Positions 3,455-30,768 of a stretch of 30,984 nt of DNA are shown here, piece by piece. Position 1 is the stretch's first letter. Each line of letters starts with the position of its first letter. The notes under the pieces are model-generated. The model saw only the letters and a list, made by a program, of their open reading frames with translations. It was not told where the DNA came from and searched no databases. Origin of the DNA: a virus; the IMG/VR virus record IMGVR_UViG_3300013883_000004; one strand, given 5' to 3'. The position numbers and the translations under genes were made by a program.

Positions 3455-3632
3455 CGGAGTAAATATAATACATTACAACCCAACGCCAGTACAAAGAATG
3501 TTAACTAAAATAGAAGCAATGAAGATTAAAGAGGAATTAGAAAAGAAACAGAAAGAGCAAAAGTGTAGTAAAGAGCAAAAAGAGAGGATTAAGAAAATAT
3601 GGCAAGGAGTAGTTAAGTCTTTTAACAATTAA
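3438..3632 (+). CDS. Hypothetical lysine/glutamate-rich protein (64 aa)
   Basis: ORF overlapping the previous gene by 17 nt. Confidence 0.5.
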   Translation: MYRQINGVNIIHYNPTPVQRMLTKIEAMKIKEELEKKQKEQKCSKEQKERIKKIWQGVVKSFNN

Positions 3633-3650
3633 ATTATTAAAATAAAAAAT

Positions 3651-3848
3651 ATGTATGTAATAACAGATACAGGTATAGAACAGCATTTTGATTTAGATGA
3701 AATGCTTGTTGAAGATACCAATTGGCTAATTAAACAGGCGGTTTTACAGAAGAAAAAAGATTTTGTAAAAATTGCGAAGCAGATAGATTTAAGACAAGAA
3801 GATTGGGACAGGTTTTGGAAAGGAATAAGAGAGTTTTCTAATAATTAA
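3651..3848 (+). CDS. Hypothetical protein (65 aa)
   Basis: ORF preceded by AAATTATTAAA at 3631-3641. Confidence 0.55.
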   Translation: MYVITDTGIEQHFDLDEMLVEDTNWLIKQAVLQKKKDFVKIAKQIDLRQEDWDRFWKGIREFSNN

Positions 3849-3878
3849 GTTAATAATTAAATTAAGTAAAAATAAAAA

Positions 3879-4100
3879 ATGAATAAAATAAAATATGATG
3901 TACAGAAAGATATAAGAAGTTCAGGAGTTGGTTGGTATGCTTATGTATTAGTAGGACTTGTTACTGCTCTTGTAGGAATTGCAATTGTTGCCCTAGTAAT
4001 GACGGTATTTACCTTGTTAAGCAACAATTACAACAGAGCATTAGATACTTGTATAAGTAAGGGGCATAGCAAAGAGTATTGTATAAGTATATTGAATTAA
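3879..4100 (+). CDS. Small membrane protein (73 aa, one TM helix)
   Basis: The hydrophobic span is WYAYVLVGLVTALVGIAIVALVMTVFTLL. Confidence 0.55.
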   Translation: MNKIKYDVQKDIRSSGVGWYAYVLVGLVTALVGIAIVALVMTVFTLLSNNYNRALDTCISKGHSKEYCISILN

Positions 4101-4123
4101 GTCTAATCTATTAAGAAAGGGGA

Positions 4124-4408
4124 ATGAAGAAAAGTAGAAAAGAAATTCTTATTGAAAATAGAGTAAAGAAGTTTGTCAAAAATTGCAGATGGTTAAACCA
4201 TAAAAATGCTAAACATCTTGTTTATTATTCTTGTGCTTGGGATAGTGAATATGCTCGGGCAGAACACAAGTGTCCACTTACTGGGGAGAAGGCTATGTAC
4301 TTTATACAGCATAAAAGAATGGGGAGAAAAACAGTAATTGAAGGAATAAGCCTAAAAGCAATAAAAATGATTGAAAAAGAGATAGGTTGCTCATTAAAAG
4401 AAGTCTAA
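4124..4408 (+). CDS. Hypothetical protein (94 aa)
   Basis: ORF with the purine-rich AAAGGGGA directly before its ATG. It is the last CDS before the non-coding block. Confidence 0.6.
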   Translation: MKKSRKEILIENRVKKFVKNCRWLNHKNAKHLVYYSCAWDSEYARAEHKCPLTGEKAMYFIQHKRMGRKTVIEGISLKAIKMIEKEIGCSLKEV

Positions 4409-4418
4409 ATAATTATTA

Positions 4419-4630
4419 GTGCGGGGGGTCAACTTACAATACTCGCAAAGTATTGTGAAAGTGGCTTGCTTCTGATAGCGAAGTAGTAGAGATACGAAAG
4501 AGCGATGCAGAGTGCCAATCGGACTAGTGCGACATTTACAAGTGAGAAGTTATCGCTTTGAATTGTAATCTGAGGAGTGCACATTACTCAGCTTACTAGG
4601 ATAGGGTTTGCCACATATCACCCCCGTGCC
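4419..4630 (+). ncRNA. Unclassified structured RNA of about 210 nt (second Y RNA-like candidate or a novel RNA)
   Basis: There is no ORF here and the GC is about 47% by hand count of 4421-4520. A 9-bp closing helix pairs GUGCGGGGG (4419-4427) with CCCCCGUGC (4621-4629). Internal helices are 4436-4443/4449-4456, 4461-4465/4610-4614, 4467-4472/4480-4485, 4501-4506/4552-4557 and 4570-4574/4587-4591. Confidence 0.5.
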
Positions 4631-4691
4631 AGTAGTTATTTAATTGGTTAATTTAATAAGAAAAAGAATTAGTTCTTTAACAATATAAGTT

Positions 4692-4908
4692 CGCCACTTG
4701 TTCAGTAGGGTTAAATTACGGATACTTCAATGGCAATGAAAACTACCGTAGTTATTTATCCCTACCTCAGGGGGTGCGATATAACAGTTACTTCTCCTAT
4801 AAAGAAGAGGTCGCTGGTTCGAGTCCAGCCTTACCATATGGTAAGTAGCTCAGTTGGATAGAGCGCTATATACTGTTATTAATTATCGCCCCTACTGAAT
4901 GGGTGGTG
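4692..4908 (+). ncRNA. YrlA-type Y RNA-like transcript with an embedded tRNA-like domain
   Basis: The terminal helix pairs TTCAGTAGGG (4701-4710) with CCCTACTGAA (4890-4899) and CGCCAC (4692-4697) with GTGGTG (4903-4908) across a 3x3 internal loop. Inner helices are 4776-4780/4885-4889 and 4781-4788/4872-4879. These enclose a permuted tRNA cloverleaf. The RNA lies directly upstream of a Ro60 orthologue on the same strand. Confidence 0.7.
4791..4865 (+). ncRNA. Circularly permuted tRNA-like module
   Basis: The elements read, in order: CTTCT-CCTATAA-AGAAG hairpin (4791-4807); AGGTC (4808-4812); T-arm GCTGG-TTCGAGT-CCAGC (4813-4829); acceptor strands CTTACCA (4830-4836) and TGGTAAG (4839-4845) joined into a hairpin; TA (4846-4847); D-arm GCTC-AGTTGGATA-GAGC (4848-4864); G4865. 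Confidence 0.8.
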
Positions 4909-4911
4909 ATA

Positions 4912-4971
4912 GGTACAGATACTTCAAATTGCATTTTGAGCAAGTCTGTGATGCTCGGACATCTCTGTACC
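4912..4971 (+). other. Stem-loop element 3' of the Y RNA-like transcript (3' module or processing/termination hairpin)
   Basis: GGTACAGA (4912-4919) pairs with TCTGTACC (4964-4971). An inner hairpin pairs GAGCA (4938-4942) with TGCTC (4951-4955). A T-rich tract, CCCCTTTAATTTTT, lies about 10 nt downstream. Confidence 0.45.
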
Positions 4972-5005
4972 TGCCTTGCCCCTTTAATTTTTAATTATTA
5001 AATCT

Positions 5006-6427
5006 ATGTCAAGATTTAACACAAAAGTAGATAACACCACTACTAATTTGGCTGGTGGTAAAGCTTTTAAGATGAATGCAGAGCAAGAGTTGCTTCACGC
5101 CGTTCTTACTACATTCCTTGAAGATAAATACTACGAGTCAGGAGATGAAAGAATAGAAAGAATTAAAACCCTTGTTTCGCAGGTTAAGCCAGAATATGTG
5201 GCTAAACTTGCGTATGTTGCTAGAAATGAGTTTAATATGAGAAGTGTTCCTATTGTTCTTTTAGGAGAGTTATCTAAGGTTCATAAAGGGGACTCTTTGG
5301 TTAAAAATGCTATTGAAAAAACTGTGGCAAGGGTTGATGATTTAACGGAATTGGTTGCATATCTAGATTGTAAACTTCCTAAGCAAGTCAAAAGAGGTAT
5401 AAGGCATTCACTTTACAAGTTTTCTCCTTATCAGTTAGCGAAATACAGAGGAGAAGGCAAAGATGTTAAATTGGTAGATGTCTTTAATCTTGTACATCCT
5501 AATCCTAAGTTTGCAACGGATAAACAGAAAGAAGCTTGGGCTAAATTAATAAAAGGAGAGCTTAAAACTACTGGACAGACTTGGGAGTCAGTGATATCTG
5601 CTTCTAAGGATAAAAAAGCTGACTGGGAGATGCTGGTCAGAGAAAACAAACTTGGGTATATGGCACTTCTAAGGAACTTGAATAACCTTATAAAAGAAGG
5701 TGTATCAGATGAGGTACTGCAATTGGCTATAAATAAGCTTACTAATAGAGAACAAGTAAAAAAATCTAAACAATTGCCATTCAGGTTTGTTACTGCATAT
5801 GAAAATGTGCAAGGCAATAGAAAACTTACAGATGCAATATCAGTAGCAATGGACTATGCGGTAGATAATACGCCAGAACTTGCTGGTAAAACGCTTATAG
5901 CAATAGACTGCTCTGGTTCGATGGAAGGAGATGCAATTCAAAAAGCTTCTATCTTTGGGGCAACATTGGCGAAAGCCAATTCTAATTCAGATGTGATTTT
6001 GTACGATACTTCTGTGAAACAGTTAACTATTTCAACAAGAACGCCAGTAATTGATGTTGCACAATATGTAGAAAAAGAAGCAATGGGGGGAGGAACTAAT
6101 ACTTCTTTGGTCTTTGAGTATGCATATCAAAGTGGAAAGTTATATGACAGAATAATAATTATTTCTGATAACGAATCTTGGCAAGATAGTTACAGTGGAT
6201 GGTATACCACACAAAATGGTACACAAGAGGCATACAACAAGTATAAGAACCTTACAAAAACAGACCCATTCGTATATGCAATAGATATTCAAGGTTATGG
6301 TACGAAAGATATTTCTAATCCTAAGGTTATACATCTTGCTGGTTGGTCATCAAGGCTATTAGATTTTATCGGATTATATGAAAAAGGTGGTTCTATTGTG
6401 GAGTATATAAACTCTGTGGAATTGTAA
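5006..6427 (+). CDS. rsr: Ro60 orthologue (Rsr): TROVE domain plus C-terminal vWA domain
   Basis: The N-terminus TNLAGGKAFKMNAEQELLHAVLTTFLEDKYYESGDERIERIK matches the TROVE signature (T-N-x-AGG-x-AF ... FYE). A MIDAS-type DxSxS motif, IAIDCSGSM, sits in the C-terminal half. At 473 aa the length suits a bacterial Rsr. Confidence 0.9.
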   Translation: MSRFNTKVDNTTTNLAGGKAFKMNAEQELLHAVLTTFLEDKYYESGDERIERIKTLVSQVKPEYVAKLAYVARNEFNMRSVPIVLLGELSKVHKGDSLVKNAIEKTVARVDDLTELVAYLDCKLPKQVKRGIRHSLYKFSPYQLAKYRGEGKDVKLVDVFNLVHPNPKFATDKQKEAWAKLIKGELKTTGQTWESVISASKDKKADWEMLVRENKLGYMALLRNLNNLIKEGVSDEVLQLAINKLTNREQVKKSKQLPFRFVTAYENVQGNRKLTDAISVAMDYAVDNTPELAGKTLIAIDCSGSMEGDAIQKASIFGATLAKANSNSDVILYDTSVKQLTISTRTPVIDVAQYVEKEAMGGGTNTSLVFEYAYQSGKLYDRIIIISDNESWQDSYSGWYTTQNGTQEAYNKYKNLTKTDPFVYAIDIQGYGTKDISNPKVIHLAGWSSRLLDFIGLYEKGGSIVEYINSVEL

Positions 6428-6459
6428 TTATATTTAGTTAATTTATTAAATAAATATAA

Positions 6460-6687
6460 ATGTGGAGAAATGATAAAGACTTCTATTATTTAGAGGAAAA
6501 AAGTTCAGTTAGTCTGTTAAAAGCCATTTTGGTAAAAATATTTGGAATTAGAATAATGGCTTATGATATTGAAAATAATATTGTAACCGTAGTTGAGATG
6601 TATCGGTATGGAGGAGAGAGTTATATAACGAAAGAATATTCAATTAAATTAGATAAAAGAAAGAATAATGAAGAAACTACGACTTAA
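6460..6687 (+). CDS. Hypothetical protein (75 aa)
   Basis: ORF preceded by AATTTATTAAA at 6440-6450. Confidence 0.5.
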   Translation: MWRNDKDFYYLEEKSSVSLLKAILVKIFGIRIMAYDIENNIVTVVEMYRYGGESYITKEYSIKLDKRKNNEETTT

Positions 6688-6835
6688 ATATAAGGTGTTG
6701 TTTTGGTTCTTGTTCTTTGTAACGCCTGTTATGATTTGTGGTTGGGTTAATACCGAAAACCACTTATACAATCTTATCCCGTTATGTATTGTTATTTATG
6801 GGGTAGTTGATATATTAGTTGGTGATTGGGATTGA
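6668..6835 (+). CDS. Small two-TM membrane protein (55 aa), below the ORF-track cutoff
   Basis: Hand translation gives MKKLRLKYKVLFWFLFFVTPVMICGWVNTENHLYNLIPLCIVIYGVVDILVGDWD. It fills an otherwise empty gap. Confidence 0.45.
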   Translation: MKKLRLKYKVLFWFLFFVTPVMICGWVNTENHLYNLIPLCIVIYGVVDILVGDWD

Positions 6836-6862
6836 AAGTAATTAAATTATTAAACAAACAAA

Positions 6863-7117
6863 ATGAATATTAGAGAAGAATTAAAGAAACTCTTAAGTAA
6901 TTGTTCTGAAGAAAGCTTTTTTCATGAGGTTAATAATGGGATTAAAAAGACTGAGATGAGAAATATGATAATTTTTTGTATAGATGAGCTATTAACAATG
7001 AGTTTTGATGAAGGAAGACGATATCAAATGAAAATAGATGGAGAAGTGTATAGAATGCCTCTTGAGAGTTTTAAACATAGTGATGAAATAGATAAATTGT
7101 TAAAAGAAGAAAAATGA
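6863..7117 (+). CDS. Hypothetical protein (84 aa)
   Basis: ORF preceded by AAATTATTAAA at 6844-6854. Confidence 0.55.
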   Translation: MNIREELKKLLSNCSEESFFHEVNNGIKKTEMRNMIIFCIDELLTMSFDEGRRYQMKIDGEVYRMPLESFKHSDEIDKLLKEEK

Positions 7118-30604: not shown

Positions 30605-30758
30605 AATAACAAAAAAGTATTTTGATACCGTACTTAAAAAAGAAATAATGCCACAAGAAGTAATAGAAGTTGAACCTGAAAGAGCCTTAGTATTGTGCAA
30701 GGCTGGGGTTTGTGAAATAATAGTAATGGATAAATTAAAGAAAAAATTAAATTATTAA
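30591..30758 (+). CDS. Hypothetical small protein (55 aa), below the track cutoff
   Basis: Hand translation gives MVKVKITKKYFDTVLKKEIMPQEVIEVEPERALVLCKAGVCEIIVMDKLKKKLNY. It overlaps the end of the glycosyltransferase gene. Confidence 0.35.
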   Translation: MVKVKITKKYFDTVLKKEIMPQEVIEVEPERALVLCKAGVCEIIVMDKLKKKLNY

Positions 30759-30768
30759 ACAACTTAAA

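What the first reader, a model, noticed from the sequence alone, without database searches (positions are those of the whole stretch)
4409..6427. Phage-borne Ro60 (TROVE+vWA) gene behind about 600 nt of structured non-coding RNA: a viral Ro60-Y RNA module
In a genome where intergenic gaps are otherwise about 20-150 nt, 4409-5005 has no ORF. It is visibly GC-enriched: I hand-counted about 47% over 4421-4520, against about 30% in a sample of nearby coding sequence. The block is densely self-complementary. It abuts a 473-aa ORF with a TROVE-type N-terminus (TNLAGGKAF...TTFLEDKYYE) and a vWA MIDAS motif (DCSGSM), which is a Ro60/Rsr orthologue. In bacteria, Rsr binds Y RNAs encoded next to it. In Deinococcus and Salmonella the RNP tethers PNPase for degradation of structured RNA and assists rRNA maturation under stress. 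Phage-encoded examples have been noted in the Y RNA literature, as I recall, but their role in infection is essentially unexplored. Here the module sits in the early/middle region of an apparently virulent siphophage, with the RNAs upstream of rsr on the same strand. That placement implies co-transcription followed by processing. Possible roles are remodelling host RNA decay, quality control of phage RNAs, or decoying host RNA-targeting defences.
Basis: partly seen in the sequence, partly recalled or inferred. Interest (0 to 1): 0.88.

Follow-up and report, generated by a model that had tools for sequence, protein, structure and literature searches.

The report
Phage Ro60 gene with Y RNAs
This phage carries its own Ro60 RNA-binding ring protein, preceded by three small partner "Y" RNAs (one shaped like a tRNA); the module is already known from bacteria and other phages, so this is a clear new example, not a new kind of system.

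Summary
4409-5005 is the longest ORF-free gap in the window (597 nt against a median of 25 nt). It is GC-enriched and folds better than shuffles (z -5.0).

The ORF at 5006-6427 is a Ro60/TROVE+vWA protein. It passes the Pfam thresholds. Its AlphaFold model matches only Ro60 structures, and the best match is Thermus phage phiLo Ro60.

The 3' half of the gap (4692-4987) holds three abutting Y-RNA-type modules on the Ro60 strand:
- M2: a short module.
- M3: a YrlA-type RNA with a permuted tRNA-like domain (Rfam YrlA, 53.5 bits, below the gathering score of 69).
- M4: a short module.

All three are conserved in sister phages, with compensatory base changes.

The 5' 214 nt (M1, 4419-4632) is not shown to be a Y RNA. 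It has no homologue and folds weakly (z -1.7). It arrived together with an orphan ORF as a strain-specific insertion.

Ro60 with adjacent Y RNAs in phages is already published: 22 phages in 2014, phiLo biochemistry in 2025, and Bas63 gp130 as a counter-defence gene. I found 408 GenBank phage records with Ro60 homologues, and YrlA-type RNAs beside Ro60 in about 50 of 80 viral contigs.

Verdict: a new member of a known kind, of moderate-to-low interest.

The parts
5006..6427 (+). Ro60/Rsr-type protein (473 aa): TROVE HEAT-repeat ring plus a C-terminal vWA domain with an intact MIDAS motif (DCSGS, aa 301-305)
   Evidence: Pfam TROVE 3e-24 and vWA_Ro60 2.5e-10, both above cut-off. PHROG 850 'RNA-binding protein', 1.6e-49 over the full length. 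phmmer to phiLo Ro60 (9L5Y/9KOP) gives 2.3e-25 over aa 10-461. The AF2 model has pLDDT 81, and the top 13 Foldseek PDB hits are all Ro60 (9KOP TM 0.72, 2NVO TM 0.64).
4767..4898 (+). M3, a YrlA-type Y RNA. Outer stem 4770-4780 / 4885-4892. Inner stem AUAACAG 4781-4787 / CUGUUAU 4873-4879. UUAC 4788-4791. V hairpin 4790-4811. T arm 4813-4829 (GGUUCGAGUCC). Closed acceptor-like stem-loop 4830-4845. D arm 4848-4864 (GCUCAGUUGGAUAGAGC).
   Evidence: Rfam YrlA RF02553: 53.5 bits, E 3.8e-11, below the gathering score of 69. Fold z -3.77. In 8 orthologues 95.7% of cells pair, 11 pairs change on both sides, and 0 of 500 shuffles reach this. My own model R1 finds the same architecture beside Ro60 in about 50 of 80 phage loci, always on the Ro60 strand.
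4898..4987 (+). M4, a short Y-RNA-type module with no tRNA-like domain. Outer GGG 4901-4903 / CCC(C) ~4979-4982. Box GGUGAUA. Inner stem GGUACAG 4912-4918 / CUGUACC 4965-4971. AUACUUC. Two small hairpins.
   Evidence: Fold z -3.09. In 10 orthologues 97.2% of cells pair, 9 pairs change on both sides, and 0 of 500 shuffles reach this.
4692..4768 (+). M2, a short Y-RNA-type module. Invariant leader CGCCACUUGUUCA. Outer stem GUAGGG 4705-4710 / CCCUAC 4760-4765. Inner stem AUUACGG 4715-4721 / CCGUAGU 4746-4752. AUACUUC. One hairpin.
   Evidence: Fold z -2.08. In 10 orthologues 96.9% of cells pair. Five pairs change on both sides; this count is not beyond shuffles (115/500), but the covariation score is (0/500).
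4633..4691 (+). AT-rich spacer (15% GC) with a GTTCTTTAA box that is conserved ahead of the Y array in sister phages
   Evidence: Composition. The box is visible in the upstream regions of L001, L082, L083, L090, L092 and L093. Its function is unknown.
4419..4632 (+). M1, an orphan GC-rich block (46% GC) closed by GUGCGGGGG / CCCCCGUGC. Its status as an RNA gene is unproven.
   Evidence: Fold z only -1.74, with 9 of 200 shuffles as good. No Rfam hit. No homologue in 180+ fetched loci by blastn-short or nhmmer. The one IMG/VR pattern hit was chance. It is not an Xa-type element.
4124..4408 (+). ORF94, an orphan 94-aa ORF. Together with M1 it forms an insertion relative to sister phages. It is context, not part of the Ro60-Y RNA module.
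   Evidence: No Pfam, PHROG or NCBIfam hit. The only match among 5.8 billion proteins is itself. In L002, L098 and L082 the homologue of ORF 3879-4100 lies only about 50-85 nt upstream of the Y array, with no ORF94 or M1 between them.

Best explanation
The locus is a phage-encoded Ro60-Y RNA ribonucleoprotein module.

The 473-aa protein is a ring-shaped Ro60 of a phage-specific clade. Directly upstream, on the same strand and abutting one another, lie three Y-RNA-type genes (M2, M3, M4). They share one chassis:
- a G-run / C-run terminal helix;
- an internal loop with a degenerate GNCGAA-like box (GUGCGAU in M3, GGUGAUA in M4);
- a 7-bp helix ending in ACRG;
- the junction WUACUUC.

The modules differ in what the chassis carries. 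M3 carries a permuted tRNA mimic, in the order V arm, T arm, closed acceptor-like stem, D arm. M2 and M4 carry small hairpins.

What is shown here: the protein family and fold, the RNA architectures, their conservation with compensatory changes, and their strict linkage to Ro60 in strand and position across phages.

What is inferred from characterised relatives:
- The RNAs are cut out of the early/middle operon transcript.
- Their chassis binds the outer face of the Ro60 ring.
- Their distal domains recruit or block host factors, most likely a 3'-5' exoribonuclease such as PNPase.
- The phage thereby re-tunes host RNA decay or quality control, or disarms a defence, during infection.

M1 (4419-4632) is not part of the demonstrated module.
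For: Protein.

YrlA hit at 4769-4897 with full model coverage, E 3.8e-11. The same hit recurs in sister phages: L092 53.7 bits, L082 49.2, L090 47.2, L093 39.0.

The M2-M3-M4 trio is conserved upstream of Ro60 in every close relative with 73-84% protein identity.

Covariation: A6, A4 and A5 show 96-97% of cells paired and 11, 9 and 5 pairs changed on both sides. All slid controls fall to 29-57% paired. Family-wide, alignment A7 (77 distinct sequences) shows 91% paired against 58% in shuffles, and 40 of 41 pairs change on both sides. That alignment is fitted to the model.

Strand and position linkage: all 84 R1 hits are on the Ro60 strand. The 5' junction motif AC[AG]G[AT]TACTTC occurs 56 times on the Ro60 strand and 0 times on the other strand in 79 loci, against about 0.5 expected.

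The features match the published YrlA definition: same strand, within 4 kb of Ro60, a GNCGAA box, YUAY opening the V arm, and T, AS and D stem-loops (PMC4201824).

Functional precedent: the phiLo Ro60-Yrl1/2-PNPase complex slows PNPase (PMC12135203). Bas63 gp130 counters Ppl (PMC11482910). The D. radiodurans and Salmonella RNPs are described in PMC4201824 and 10.1101/312249.
Against: The YrlA score is below Rfam's gathering threshold (53.5 against 69).

The GNCGAA box is degenerate in all three modules.

The NCBIfam Rsr equivalog model scores only 26 bits against a cut-off of 900, so the protein is a distant clade. Its RNA recognition may differ.

There are no expression, processing or binding data. 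No promoter-like site was found on the + strand between 3846 and 5312, and no terminator-like site in 3800-7000.

The host is unknown, so no effector can be named.

The orthologue alignments are small (8-10 related sequences). Relatedness alone inflates the shuffle controls.
Confidence: 0.8

Rival explanations
1. The tRNA-shaped domain of M3 is primarily a decoy or sensor for host tRNA-targeting factors, such as anticodon nucleases, tRNA-modifying enzymes or tRNA-triggered defences. Ro60 would serve only to stabilise or deliver it. PNPase tethering would not be the point.
For: Near-identical strains differ by 0-2 nt across 4101-4794 but by 17 of 70 nt in the tRNA-like domain, in a structure-preserving way. 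Sister phages keep the M3 chassis but drop the tRNA-like domain (L083-88, L002, L098) or move it to another module (L001). About a third of phage Ro60 loci lie inside tRNA gene arrays. The published YrlA structure shows a close tRNA mimic whose partner is unknown (10.1101/312249). Bas63 gp130 is a counter-defence gene (PMC11482910).
Against: The allele swap is equally explained by ordinary homologous recombination at the conserved flanks; the incoming allele matches that of L096. No tRNA-targeting defence or host is identified. M2 and M4 have no tRNA-like part and are just as conserved.
Confidence: 0.15
2. The 5' half of the gap (M1, 4419-4632) is not a functional RNA. It is passenger sequence (a 3' UTR or remnant) of a recent ORF94-containing insertion, and only its base composition makes it look structured.
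For: Fold z is -1.74 on the + strand and -1.07 on the - strand. There is no homologue anywhere searched and no Rfam hit. ORF94+M1 is absent from sister phages, and ORF94 is an ORFan. The block 4101-4794 is nearly identical among strains whose neighbouring genes differ by 5-20%, which indicates recent transfer and not measurable constraint.
Against: M1 is 46% GC in a 33% GC genome, like the proven RNA modules. Its ends resemble a Y-module chassis: 5' G-run then UUACA-AUAC, and 3' AUAUC(A/G)CCCCC against M3's UUAUCGCCCC. Sister phages carry other structured RNAs at the same position, and one of them, Xa, has clear covariation.
Confidence: 0.5
3. The gap is a cis-acting 5' leader that regulates ro60 expression (an attenuator or riboswitch-like UTR), not a set of separate RNA genes.
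For: It lies directly upstream on the same strand. The scans found no terminator-like site in 3800-7000 and no promoter-like site on the + strand between 3846 and 5312.
Against: In other phages the same modules lie downstream of Ro60 or hundreds of nt away, and their number ranges from 1 to at least 8. Ro60 has the same TTAAATTATTAAA leader box as its neighbouring genes (4990-5002). M3 matches a trans-acting RNA family.
Confidence: 0.04
4. M3 is a real, degenerate or circularly permuted tRNA gene used in translation.
For: Rfam tRNA gives a weak hit of 25 bits, E 0.0095, at 4773-4836. The T and D arms are tRNA-like.
Against: ARAGORN finds no tRNA in the window. The tRNA score is below the gathering score of 29. 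The arm order is V-T-acceptor-D, the acceptor-like stem is closed by a loop, and the position of the anticodon arm is taken by the helix that leads to the Ro60-binding chassis. This is the YrlA layout.
Confidence: 0.02

Closest known systems
YrlA/YrlB Y RNAs with Rsr in Salmonella Typhimurium and Mycobacterium smegmatis (Chen et al. 2014, PMC4201824; YrlA structure, 10.1101/312249)
   Same: The RNAs lie on the same strand next to the Ro60 gene. One RNA has a tRNA-like domain in the order V, T, closed acceptor-like stem, D, opened by YUAY. It is accompanied by shorter Y RNAs. In M. smegmatis both RNAs lie upstream of rsr and are cut from one precursor.
   Different: Here there are three modules in direct tandem. 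The GNCGAA box is degenerate. The Rfam score is below the gathering score. The protein is a distant phage clade, at most 40% identical to any full-length match in a cellular genome (a 259-residue fragment on one MAG contig reaches 63%). No RtcB/RtcA operon partners are present.
Thermus phage phiLo Ro60 with Yrl1/Yrl2 (Hu et al. 2025, PMC12135203; PDB 9KOP, 9L5Y)
   Same: A phage-encoded Ro60 with Y-like RNAs upstream. It is the closest solved structure to this protein (phmmer 2.3e-25; Foldseek TM 0.72, 23% identity). Both have the stem-bulge-stem RNA chassis.
   Different: The phiLo RNAs are described as simple CGAA-bulge hairpins, with no tRNA-like domain reported. The host is a thermophile. 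Binding to Ro60 and to host PNPase was shown there and is only inferred here.
Deinococcus radiodurans Rsr-Yrn1-PNPase (RYPER) complex
   Same: The general logic is shared: a Y RNA tethers the Ro60 ring to an effector. The fold is similar (2NVO, TM 0.64).
   Different: The Rsr equivalog model scores only 26 bits against a cut-off of 900. The Y RNA layout differs. No effector is known here.
Ro60-like gp130 of Escherichia phage Bas63 (PhageMaP preprint, PMC11482910) and the Rsr-like CKA15_055 of a Listeria phage (PMC12282133)
   Same: These are phage Ro60-like genes next to tRNA-like or highly expressed small RNAs. They are proposed or shown to act during infection; gp130 counters the Ppl defence.
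   Different: No sequence-level comparison was made here, and the hosts and phage types differ. The Y RNAs of those phages are not defined.
Ro60 homologues in GenBank phages
   Same: 408 records carry a homologue. Most are Mycobacterium and Streptomyces phages, with others from Bacteroides/crAss-like, Xanthomonas, Caulobacter and Vibrio phages.
   Different: All are below 60% identity, and the best listed is 41% (an uncultured 635-kb phage). This clade has no cultured representative.

Membership tests
Ro60 / Rsr (TROVE) proteins | TROVE domain profile above the curated threshold | tested here: met
   PF05731 scores 86.4 bits against a cut-off of 23. The best stretch covers only aa 190-269. Full-length support comes from PHROG 850 (aa 5-470, 1.6e-49) and from phiLo Ro60 (aa 10-461).
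Ro60 / Rsr (TROVE) proteins | C-terminal vWA domain with MIDAS residues (DxSxS...T...D) | tested here: met
   PF25045 vWA_Ro60 scores 41 bits against a cut-off of 27.7. D301, S303, S305, T364 and D388 are invariant in 30 homologues.
Ro60 / Rsr (TROVE) proteins | Ring of HEAT-like helical repeats closed by the vWA domain | tested here: met
   The AF2 model has pLDDT 81 and pTM 0.69. The top 13 Foldseek PDB hits are all Ro60 structures, with TM 0.54-0.72 normalised to the query.
Ro60 / Rsr (TROVE) proteins | Equivalog of bacterial Rsr (NCBIfam NF041674) | tested here: not met
   26.1 bits against a cut-off of 900. The protein belongs to the superfamily but is not an Rsr equivalog.
Ro60 / Rsr (TROVE) proteins | Binds Y RNA on the outer surface and single-stranded RNA ends in the central hole | not testable with these tools
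   Needs EMSA, RIP or a structure.
YrlA Y RNA (Rfam RF02553; Chen et al. 2014) | Covariance-model score at or above Rfam's gathering score | tested here: not met
   53.5 bits against 69; E 3.8e-11, model positions 1-114 of 114. The shortfall comes from a 14-nt insertion at the V arm and non-standard pairs in the model's junction helix.
YrlA Y RNA (Rfam RF02553; Chen et al. 2014) | Encoded within 4 kb of the Ro60 gene on the same strand | tested here: met
   M3 ends 108 nt upstream of the Ro60 start codon, on the + strand.
YrlA Y RNA (Rfam RF02553; Chen et al. 2014) | tRNA-like domain: T arm, closed acceptor-like stem-loop and D arm in that order, preceded by a V arm opened by YUAY | tested here: met
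   All elements are present at 4788-4864. The T, AS and V helices show compensatory changes, and the D arm is invariant among the 8 orthologues. Family-wide, these helices are 98-99.7% paired.
YrlA Y RNA (Rfam RF02553; Chen et al. 2014) | GNCGAAN0-1G box near the 5' end (proposed Ro60 contact) | tested here: inconclusive
   M3 has GUGCGAU, M4 has GGUGAUA and M2 has GGGUUAA. Only part of the box is kept. More distant phage modules do carry GGCGAAG or GGCGAAU (L056, L039).
YrlA Y RNA (Rfam RF02553; Chen et al. 2014) | Expressed, bound by Ro60, and carrying tRNA-type modifications | not testable with these tools
   Needs RNA from infected cells.
Canonical tRNA | Cloverleaf in standard order, detected by tRNA finders | tested here: not met
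   ARAGORN finds 0 genes in the window. Rfam tRNA scores 25 bits against a gathering score of 29, on a partial permuted match.

The most novel reading that the evidence does not exclude
Phage Ro60 loci may be cassette sites for fast-evolving, still unclassified partner RNAs. Under this reading, M1 in this phage would be a new type of Ro60-bound RNA. Its ends resemble a Y-module chassis, and its ~190-nt interior is unlike anything known. The unrelated structured elements at the same position in sister phages, including the covarying 'Xa' three-way junction with a UCCGAAG loop, would be further types. Each would retarget the same Ro60 ring to a different host factor or defence. Module shuffling at the conserved chassis would be the mechanism of diversification.
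Probability: 0.2. Interest if true: 0.65.

Novelty: new member of a known kind. Interest (0 to 1): 0.35.

Why it matters
The locus adds a well-resolved example from an uncultured, AT-rich phage clade to the known Ro60-Y RNA modules. Its Ro60 is at most 41% identical to any Ro60 listed from GenBank phage records.

The comparison also shows three general points:
- Phage Y RNAs come as tandem arrays built on one conserved chassis. This window has three modules, sister phages have up to five, and one IMG/VR contig has at least eight.
- The tRNA-like domain is an exchangeable cargo of that chassis.
- YrlA-type RNAs sit next to Ro60 in most of the viral contigs examined.

These points give concrete constructs for testing what phage Ro60 RNPs do. 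They do not change the current picture of the system.

Tried and rejected
- Rfam at gathering thresholds gives nothing in the window. ARAGORN gives nothing.
- blastn of 4100-6500 against GenBank phages gives no match.
- M1 homologue hunt. blastn-short and nhmmer against all fetched loci found nothing. A gapped closing-stem pattern in IMG/VR gave one hit, which proved to be chance inside a GC-rich coding region.
- The metagenome scan with the Ro60 protein added 4 loci, none with M1.
- Looking up ORF94 found six near-identical strain contigs. M1 differs by at most 1 nt among them, so they give no covariation information.
- I tested whether M1 is an 'Xa'-type element by building model R2. The best score in 4000-7000 was 3.7 bits, so this is rejected.
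- M1 as a tRNA/tmRNA-like element, suggested by its 3' ...CCCCCGU-G-CCA: no T arm and no ARAGORN call, so I treat it as coincidence.
- M1 as coding sequence: stops occur in all three + frames, and the only ORF is a 51-aa one on the - strand.
- Retron or HNH-associated RNA: the window has no reverse transcriptase, and ORF94 has no HNH signal.
- P0001 (the 100% identical Ro60) could not be traced to a contig, so the sample of origin is unknown.
- Host inference failed. The nearest full-length cellular Ro60s are 33-40% identical, mostly from Bacteroidota. A 63% partial match sits on a 2.3-kb contig binned to a Saccharibacteria MAG, which may itself be phage DNA.
Full report
OBSERVATION

The stretch 4409-5005 contains only short ORFs of 51 aa or less on either strand. 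At 597 nt it is the longest gap between plus-strand ORFs in the window, where the median gap is 25 nt.

4421-4520 is 47% GC. The upstream genes are 30-32%, the Ro60 ORF is 36% and the whole window is 33%.

The enrichment is not uniform. 4419-4632 (M1) is 46% GC, 4633-4691 is 15% and 4692-4987 is 43%.

The whole gap folds far better than dinucleotide shuffles (z -4.98). By part, the values are M3 -3.77, M4 -3.09 and M2 -2.08, and M1 only -1.74.

The window is phage DNA. It encodes a DnaD-like loader, an Erf/Rad52-type annealing protein, a ParB-methyltransferase, terminase, portal, a minor head protein, a 766-aa tape measure protein and tail proteins, all on the + strand. The locus therefore sits in the replication/recombination region.

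THE PROTEIN

ORF 5006-6427 passes the Pfam thresholds for TROVE and for the Ro60-specific vWA domain.

It matches PHROG 850 over its full length. It aligns end to end with the Ro60 of Thermus phage phiLo, PDB 9L5Y/9KOP (E 2.3e-25; PDB identities confirmed in PMC12135203).

The MIDAS residues are invariant in 30 homologues.

An AlphaFold2 model (pLDDT 81) retrieves only Ro60 structures as its top 13 PDB matches. These are phiLo (TM 0.72), D. radiodurans Rsr (TM 0.64), and the Xenopus and human proteins.

The protein is not an equivalog of bacterial Rsr: NCBIfam gives 26 bits against a cut-off of 900.

The clade is large and viral:
- More than 4,000 homologues in the metagenomic protein collection, many on 36-48 kb contigs.
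- 289 confirmed relatives in IMG/VR.
- 408 GenBank phage records, all below 60% identity and the best listed at 41%.
- Cellular genomes reach at most 40% over the full length. The one exception is a 63% match over residues 1-259 on a 2.3-kb MAG contig.

THE RNAS

At gathering thresholds Rfam and ARAGORN report nothing.

With E-value reporting, the YrlA model matches 4769-4897 over its whole length. The score is 53.5 bits against a gathering score of 69, with E 3.8e-11.

Reading the sequence shows the YrlA layout described by Chen et al. 2014 (PMC4201824):
- a terminal helix;
- a 7-bp helix, AUAACAG / CUGUUAU;
- UUAC opening a V hairpin;
- a T arm, GGUUCGAGUCC;
- an acceptor-like stem closed by a loop;
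- a D arm, GCUCAGUUGGAUAGAGC.

Two further modules flank M3 and abut it within 0-3 nt: M2 (4692-4768) and M4 (4898-4987). They share the same chassis: G-run, a GYGAU-like box, NNNACRG, WUACUUC, then the 3' partner, 6-9 nt and CCCC. They carry only small hairpins.

COMPARATIVE TEST

I fetched loci around Ro60 relatives from IMG/VR, metagenomes and Logan assemblies.

Every close relative (73-84% protein identity) has the M2-M3-M4 trio in the same place.

MAFFT alignments of the orthologous modules give RNAalifold structures that agree with the single-sequence folds. The pair counts are:
- M3: 95.7% of cells paired, 11 pairs changed on both sides.
- M4: 97.2% paired, 9 such pairs.
- M2: 96.9% paired, 5 such pairs.

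No shuffle of 500 reached the observed pairing or covariation score. Slid controls drop to 29-57% paired. For M2, the count of double-change pairs is not beyond shuffles (115/500).

These sets are small and related, so the shuffle control overstates significance. The slid controls and the many distinct pair types are the stronger evidence.

A covariance model built from M3 (R1) found 83 further matches in 53 of 80 phage loci, every one on the Ro60 strand. Its E-values are rough, and a few partial hits may be tRNA genes.

On the model-fitted alignment, 91% of cells pair against 58% in shuffles, and 40 of 41 pairs change on both sides.

The junction motif AC[AG]G[AT]TACTTC occurs 56 times on the Ro60 strand and never on the other strand in 79 loci.

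The modules are clearly modular. L083-88, L002 and L098 keep the M3 chassis but replace the tRNA-like domain with a ~25-nt hairpin. L001 carries the tRNA-like domain in its first module and has five modules. L039 has eight copies of the motif.

M1

The GC-rich 5' block that first drew attention is the weakest part.

- It has no Rfam hit.
- It has no homologue in any fetched locus.
- The only pattern hit in IMG/VR was a chance match.

Together with ORF94 (4124-4408), which is an ORFan, M1 forms an insertion relative to sister phages. In those phages the homologue of ORF 3879-4100 lies only about 50-85 nt upstream of the Y array.

Six contigs from other samples carry the identical ORF94. In them 4101-4794 differs by 0-2 nt, while the genes just upstream differ by 5-20%. 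This indicates recent transfer of the block and says nothing about constraint on M1.

Sister phages have other structured elements at M1's position. One, which I call Xa, is a three-way junction with a GAAUCCGAAG loop. It shows 12 of 23 pairs changed on both sides in only four sequences. A model of Xa does not match M1 and finds nothing in 96 loci beyond its four training sequences.

M1's ends resemble a Y-module chassis (G-run ... UUACA-AUAC at the 5' end; AUAUC(A/G)CCCCC at the 3' end). That is a lead, not evidence.

MECHANISM

Shown here: a Ro60-fold protein, three adjacent structured RNAs of the Y RNA type, their conservation, and their linkage to Ro60.

Inferred from characterised systems:
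- The RNAs are processed from the operon transcript, as in M. smegmatis (PMC4201824).
- The chassis binds Ro60's outer surface.
- The distal domains engage host factors.

The best precedent is phiLo. There, Ro60 binds two upstream Y-like RNAs with nanomolar affinity through a CGAA bulge, forms ternary complexes with host PNPase, and cuts PNPase activity by about 70-75% (PMC12135203).

A second precedent is phage Bas63, whose Ro60-like gp130 counters the Ppl defence (PMC11482910).

A Listeria phage has an Rsr-like gene within 2 kb of three very abundant small transcripts (PMC12282133). Jumbo phages are also noted to carry TROVE proteins (PMC7824862).

Which host factor is targeted in this phage cannot be said, because the host is unknown.

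VERDICT

The finding is real and correctly interpreted at its core. It belongs to a described class, so it is a new member of a known kind. The claimed extent (about 600 nt of Y RNA) is about half supported. Residual novelty lies in the orphan M1, the variable cassettes in sister phages, and the array/module-swap architecture.

Noticed in passing
L093 565-640 and 2496-2569; L090 3301-3376; L089 789-865: 'Xa' is an unclassified ~75-nt three-way-junction RNA. It has a 9-bp P1, a conserved single-stranded GAAUCCGAAG(U/G)AA, a 9-bp hairpin and a 5-bp hairpin. It flanks Ro60 upstream and/or downstream in sister phages. Twelve of 23 pairs change on both sides in four sequences. It has no Rfam match and was not found in the window or in 96 other loci. 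Its UCCGAAG loop recalls the Ro60-binding box of Y RNAs.
   Followed up: partly
window 4795-4867 compared with L181, L184, L186: Strain contigs that are identical or nearly so across 4101-4794 carry a different allele of the M3 tRNA-like domain. It differs at 17 of 70 positions with compensatory changes and matches the allele of L096. The switch point lies in the conserved chassis sequence ATAACAGTTACTTC, so the Y-RNA chassis acts as a recombination joint.
   Followed up: yes
window 4124-4408 (with 4101-4690): ORF94 is a 94-aa Cys/His-rich ORFan. It has no family hit, and its only database match is itself. It forms a strain-specific insertion together with M1, between the small membrane-protein gene 3879-4100 and the Y array.
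   Followed up: partly
window, e.g. 1400-1412, 2947-2959, 3629-3641, 4990-5002, 6438-6450, 6842-6854, 30747-30759: The box TTAAATTATTAAA lies a few nt upstream of many start codons, including that of Ro60. There are 32 matches with up to 2 mismatches against 12 expected, and 0 of 100 shuffles reach this. Only 5 of 35 ORFs have a Shine-Dalgarno-like sequence. This suggests a non-SD initiation or promoter signal and a host that does not rely on SD.
   Followed up: partly
L039 1425-2330 (IMG/VR 3300001605_000025): Eight copies of the Y-module 5' junction motif lie in tandem upstream of Ro60. Most have a matching 3' stem partner. This is a Y-RNA array far larger than any I found described.
   Followed up: no
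L007, L013, L021, L041, L043, L044, L049, L050, L053 and others: In roughly a third of the phage Ro60 loci, the gene lies inside or beside arrays of 4-12 tRNA genes on the same strand. The YrlA-type RNAs are interspersed among them.
   Followed up: partly
window 4668-4680 and the equivalent sites in L001, L082, L083, L090, L092, L093: A conserved GTTCTTT(T)AAAA box lies 10-18 nt upstream of the invariant M2 leader CGCCACUUGUUCA. In L092 and L096 it also precedes the variable upstream element. It could be a promoter -10 region, a processing signal or a cassette boundary.
   Followed up: no
L092 1026-1195 and L096 1027-1195; L001 2340-2420: Further GC-rich, apparently structured elements, unrelated in sequence to M1 or Xa, occupy the slot just upstream of the Y array in other sister phages.
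   Followed up: no
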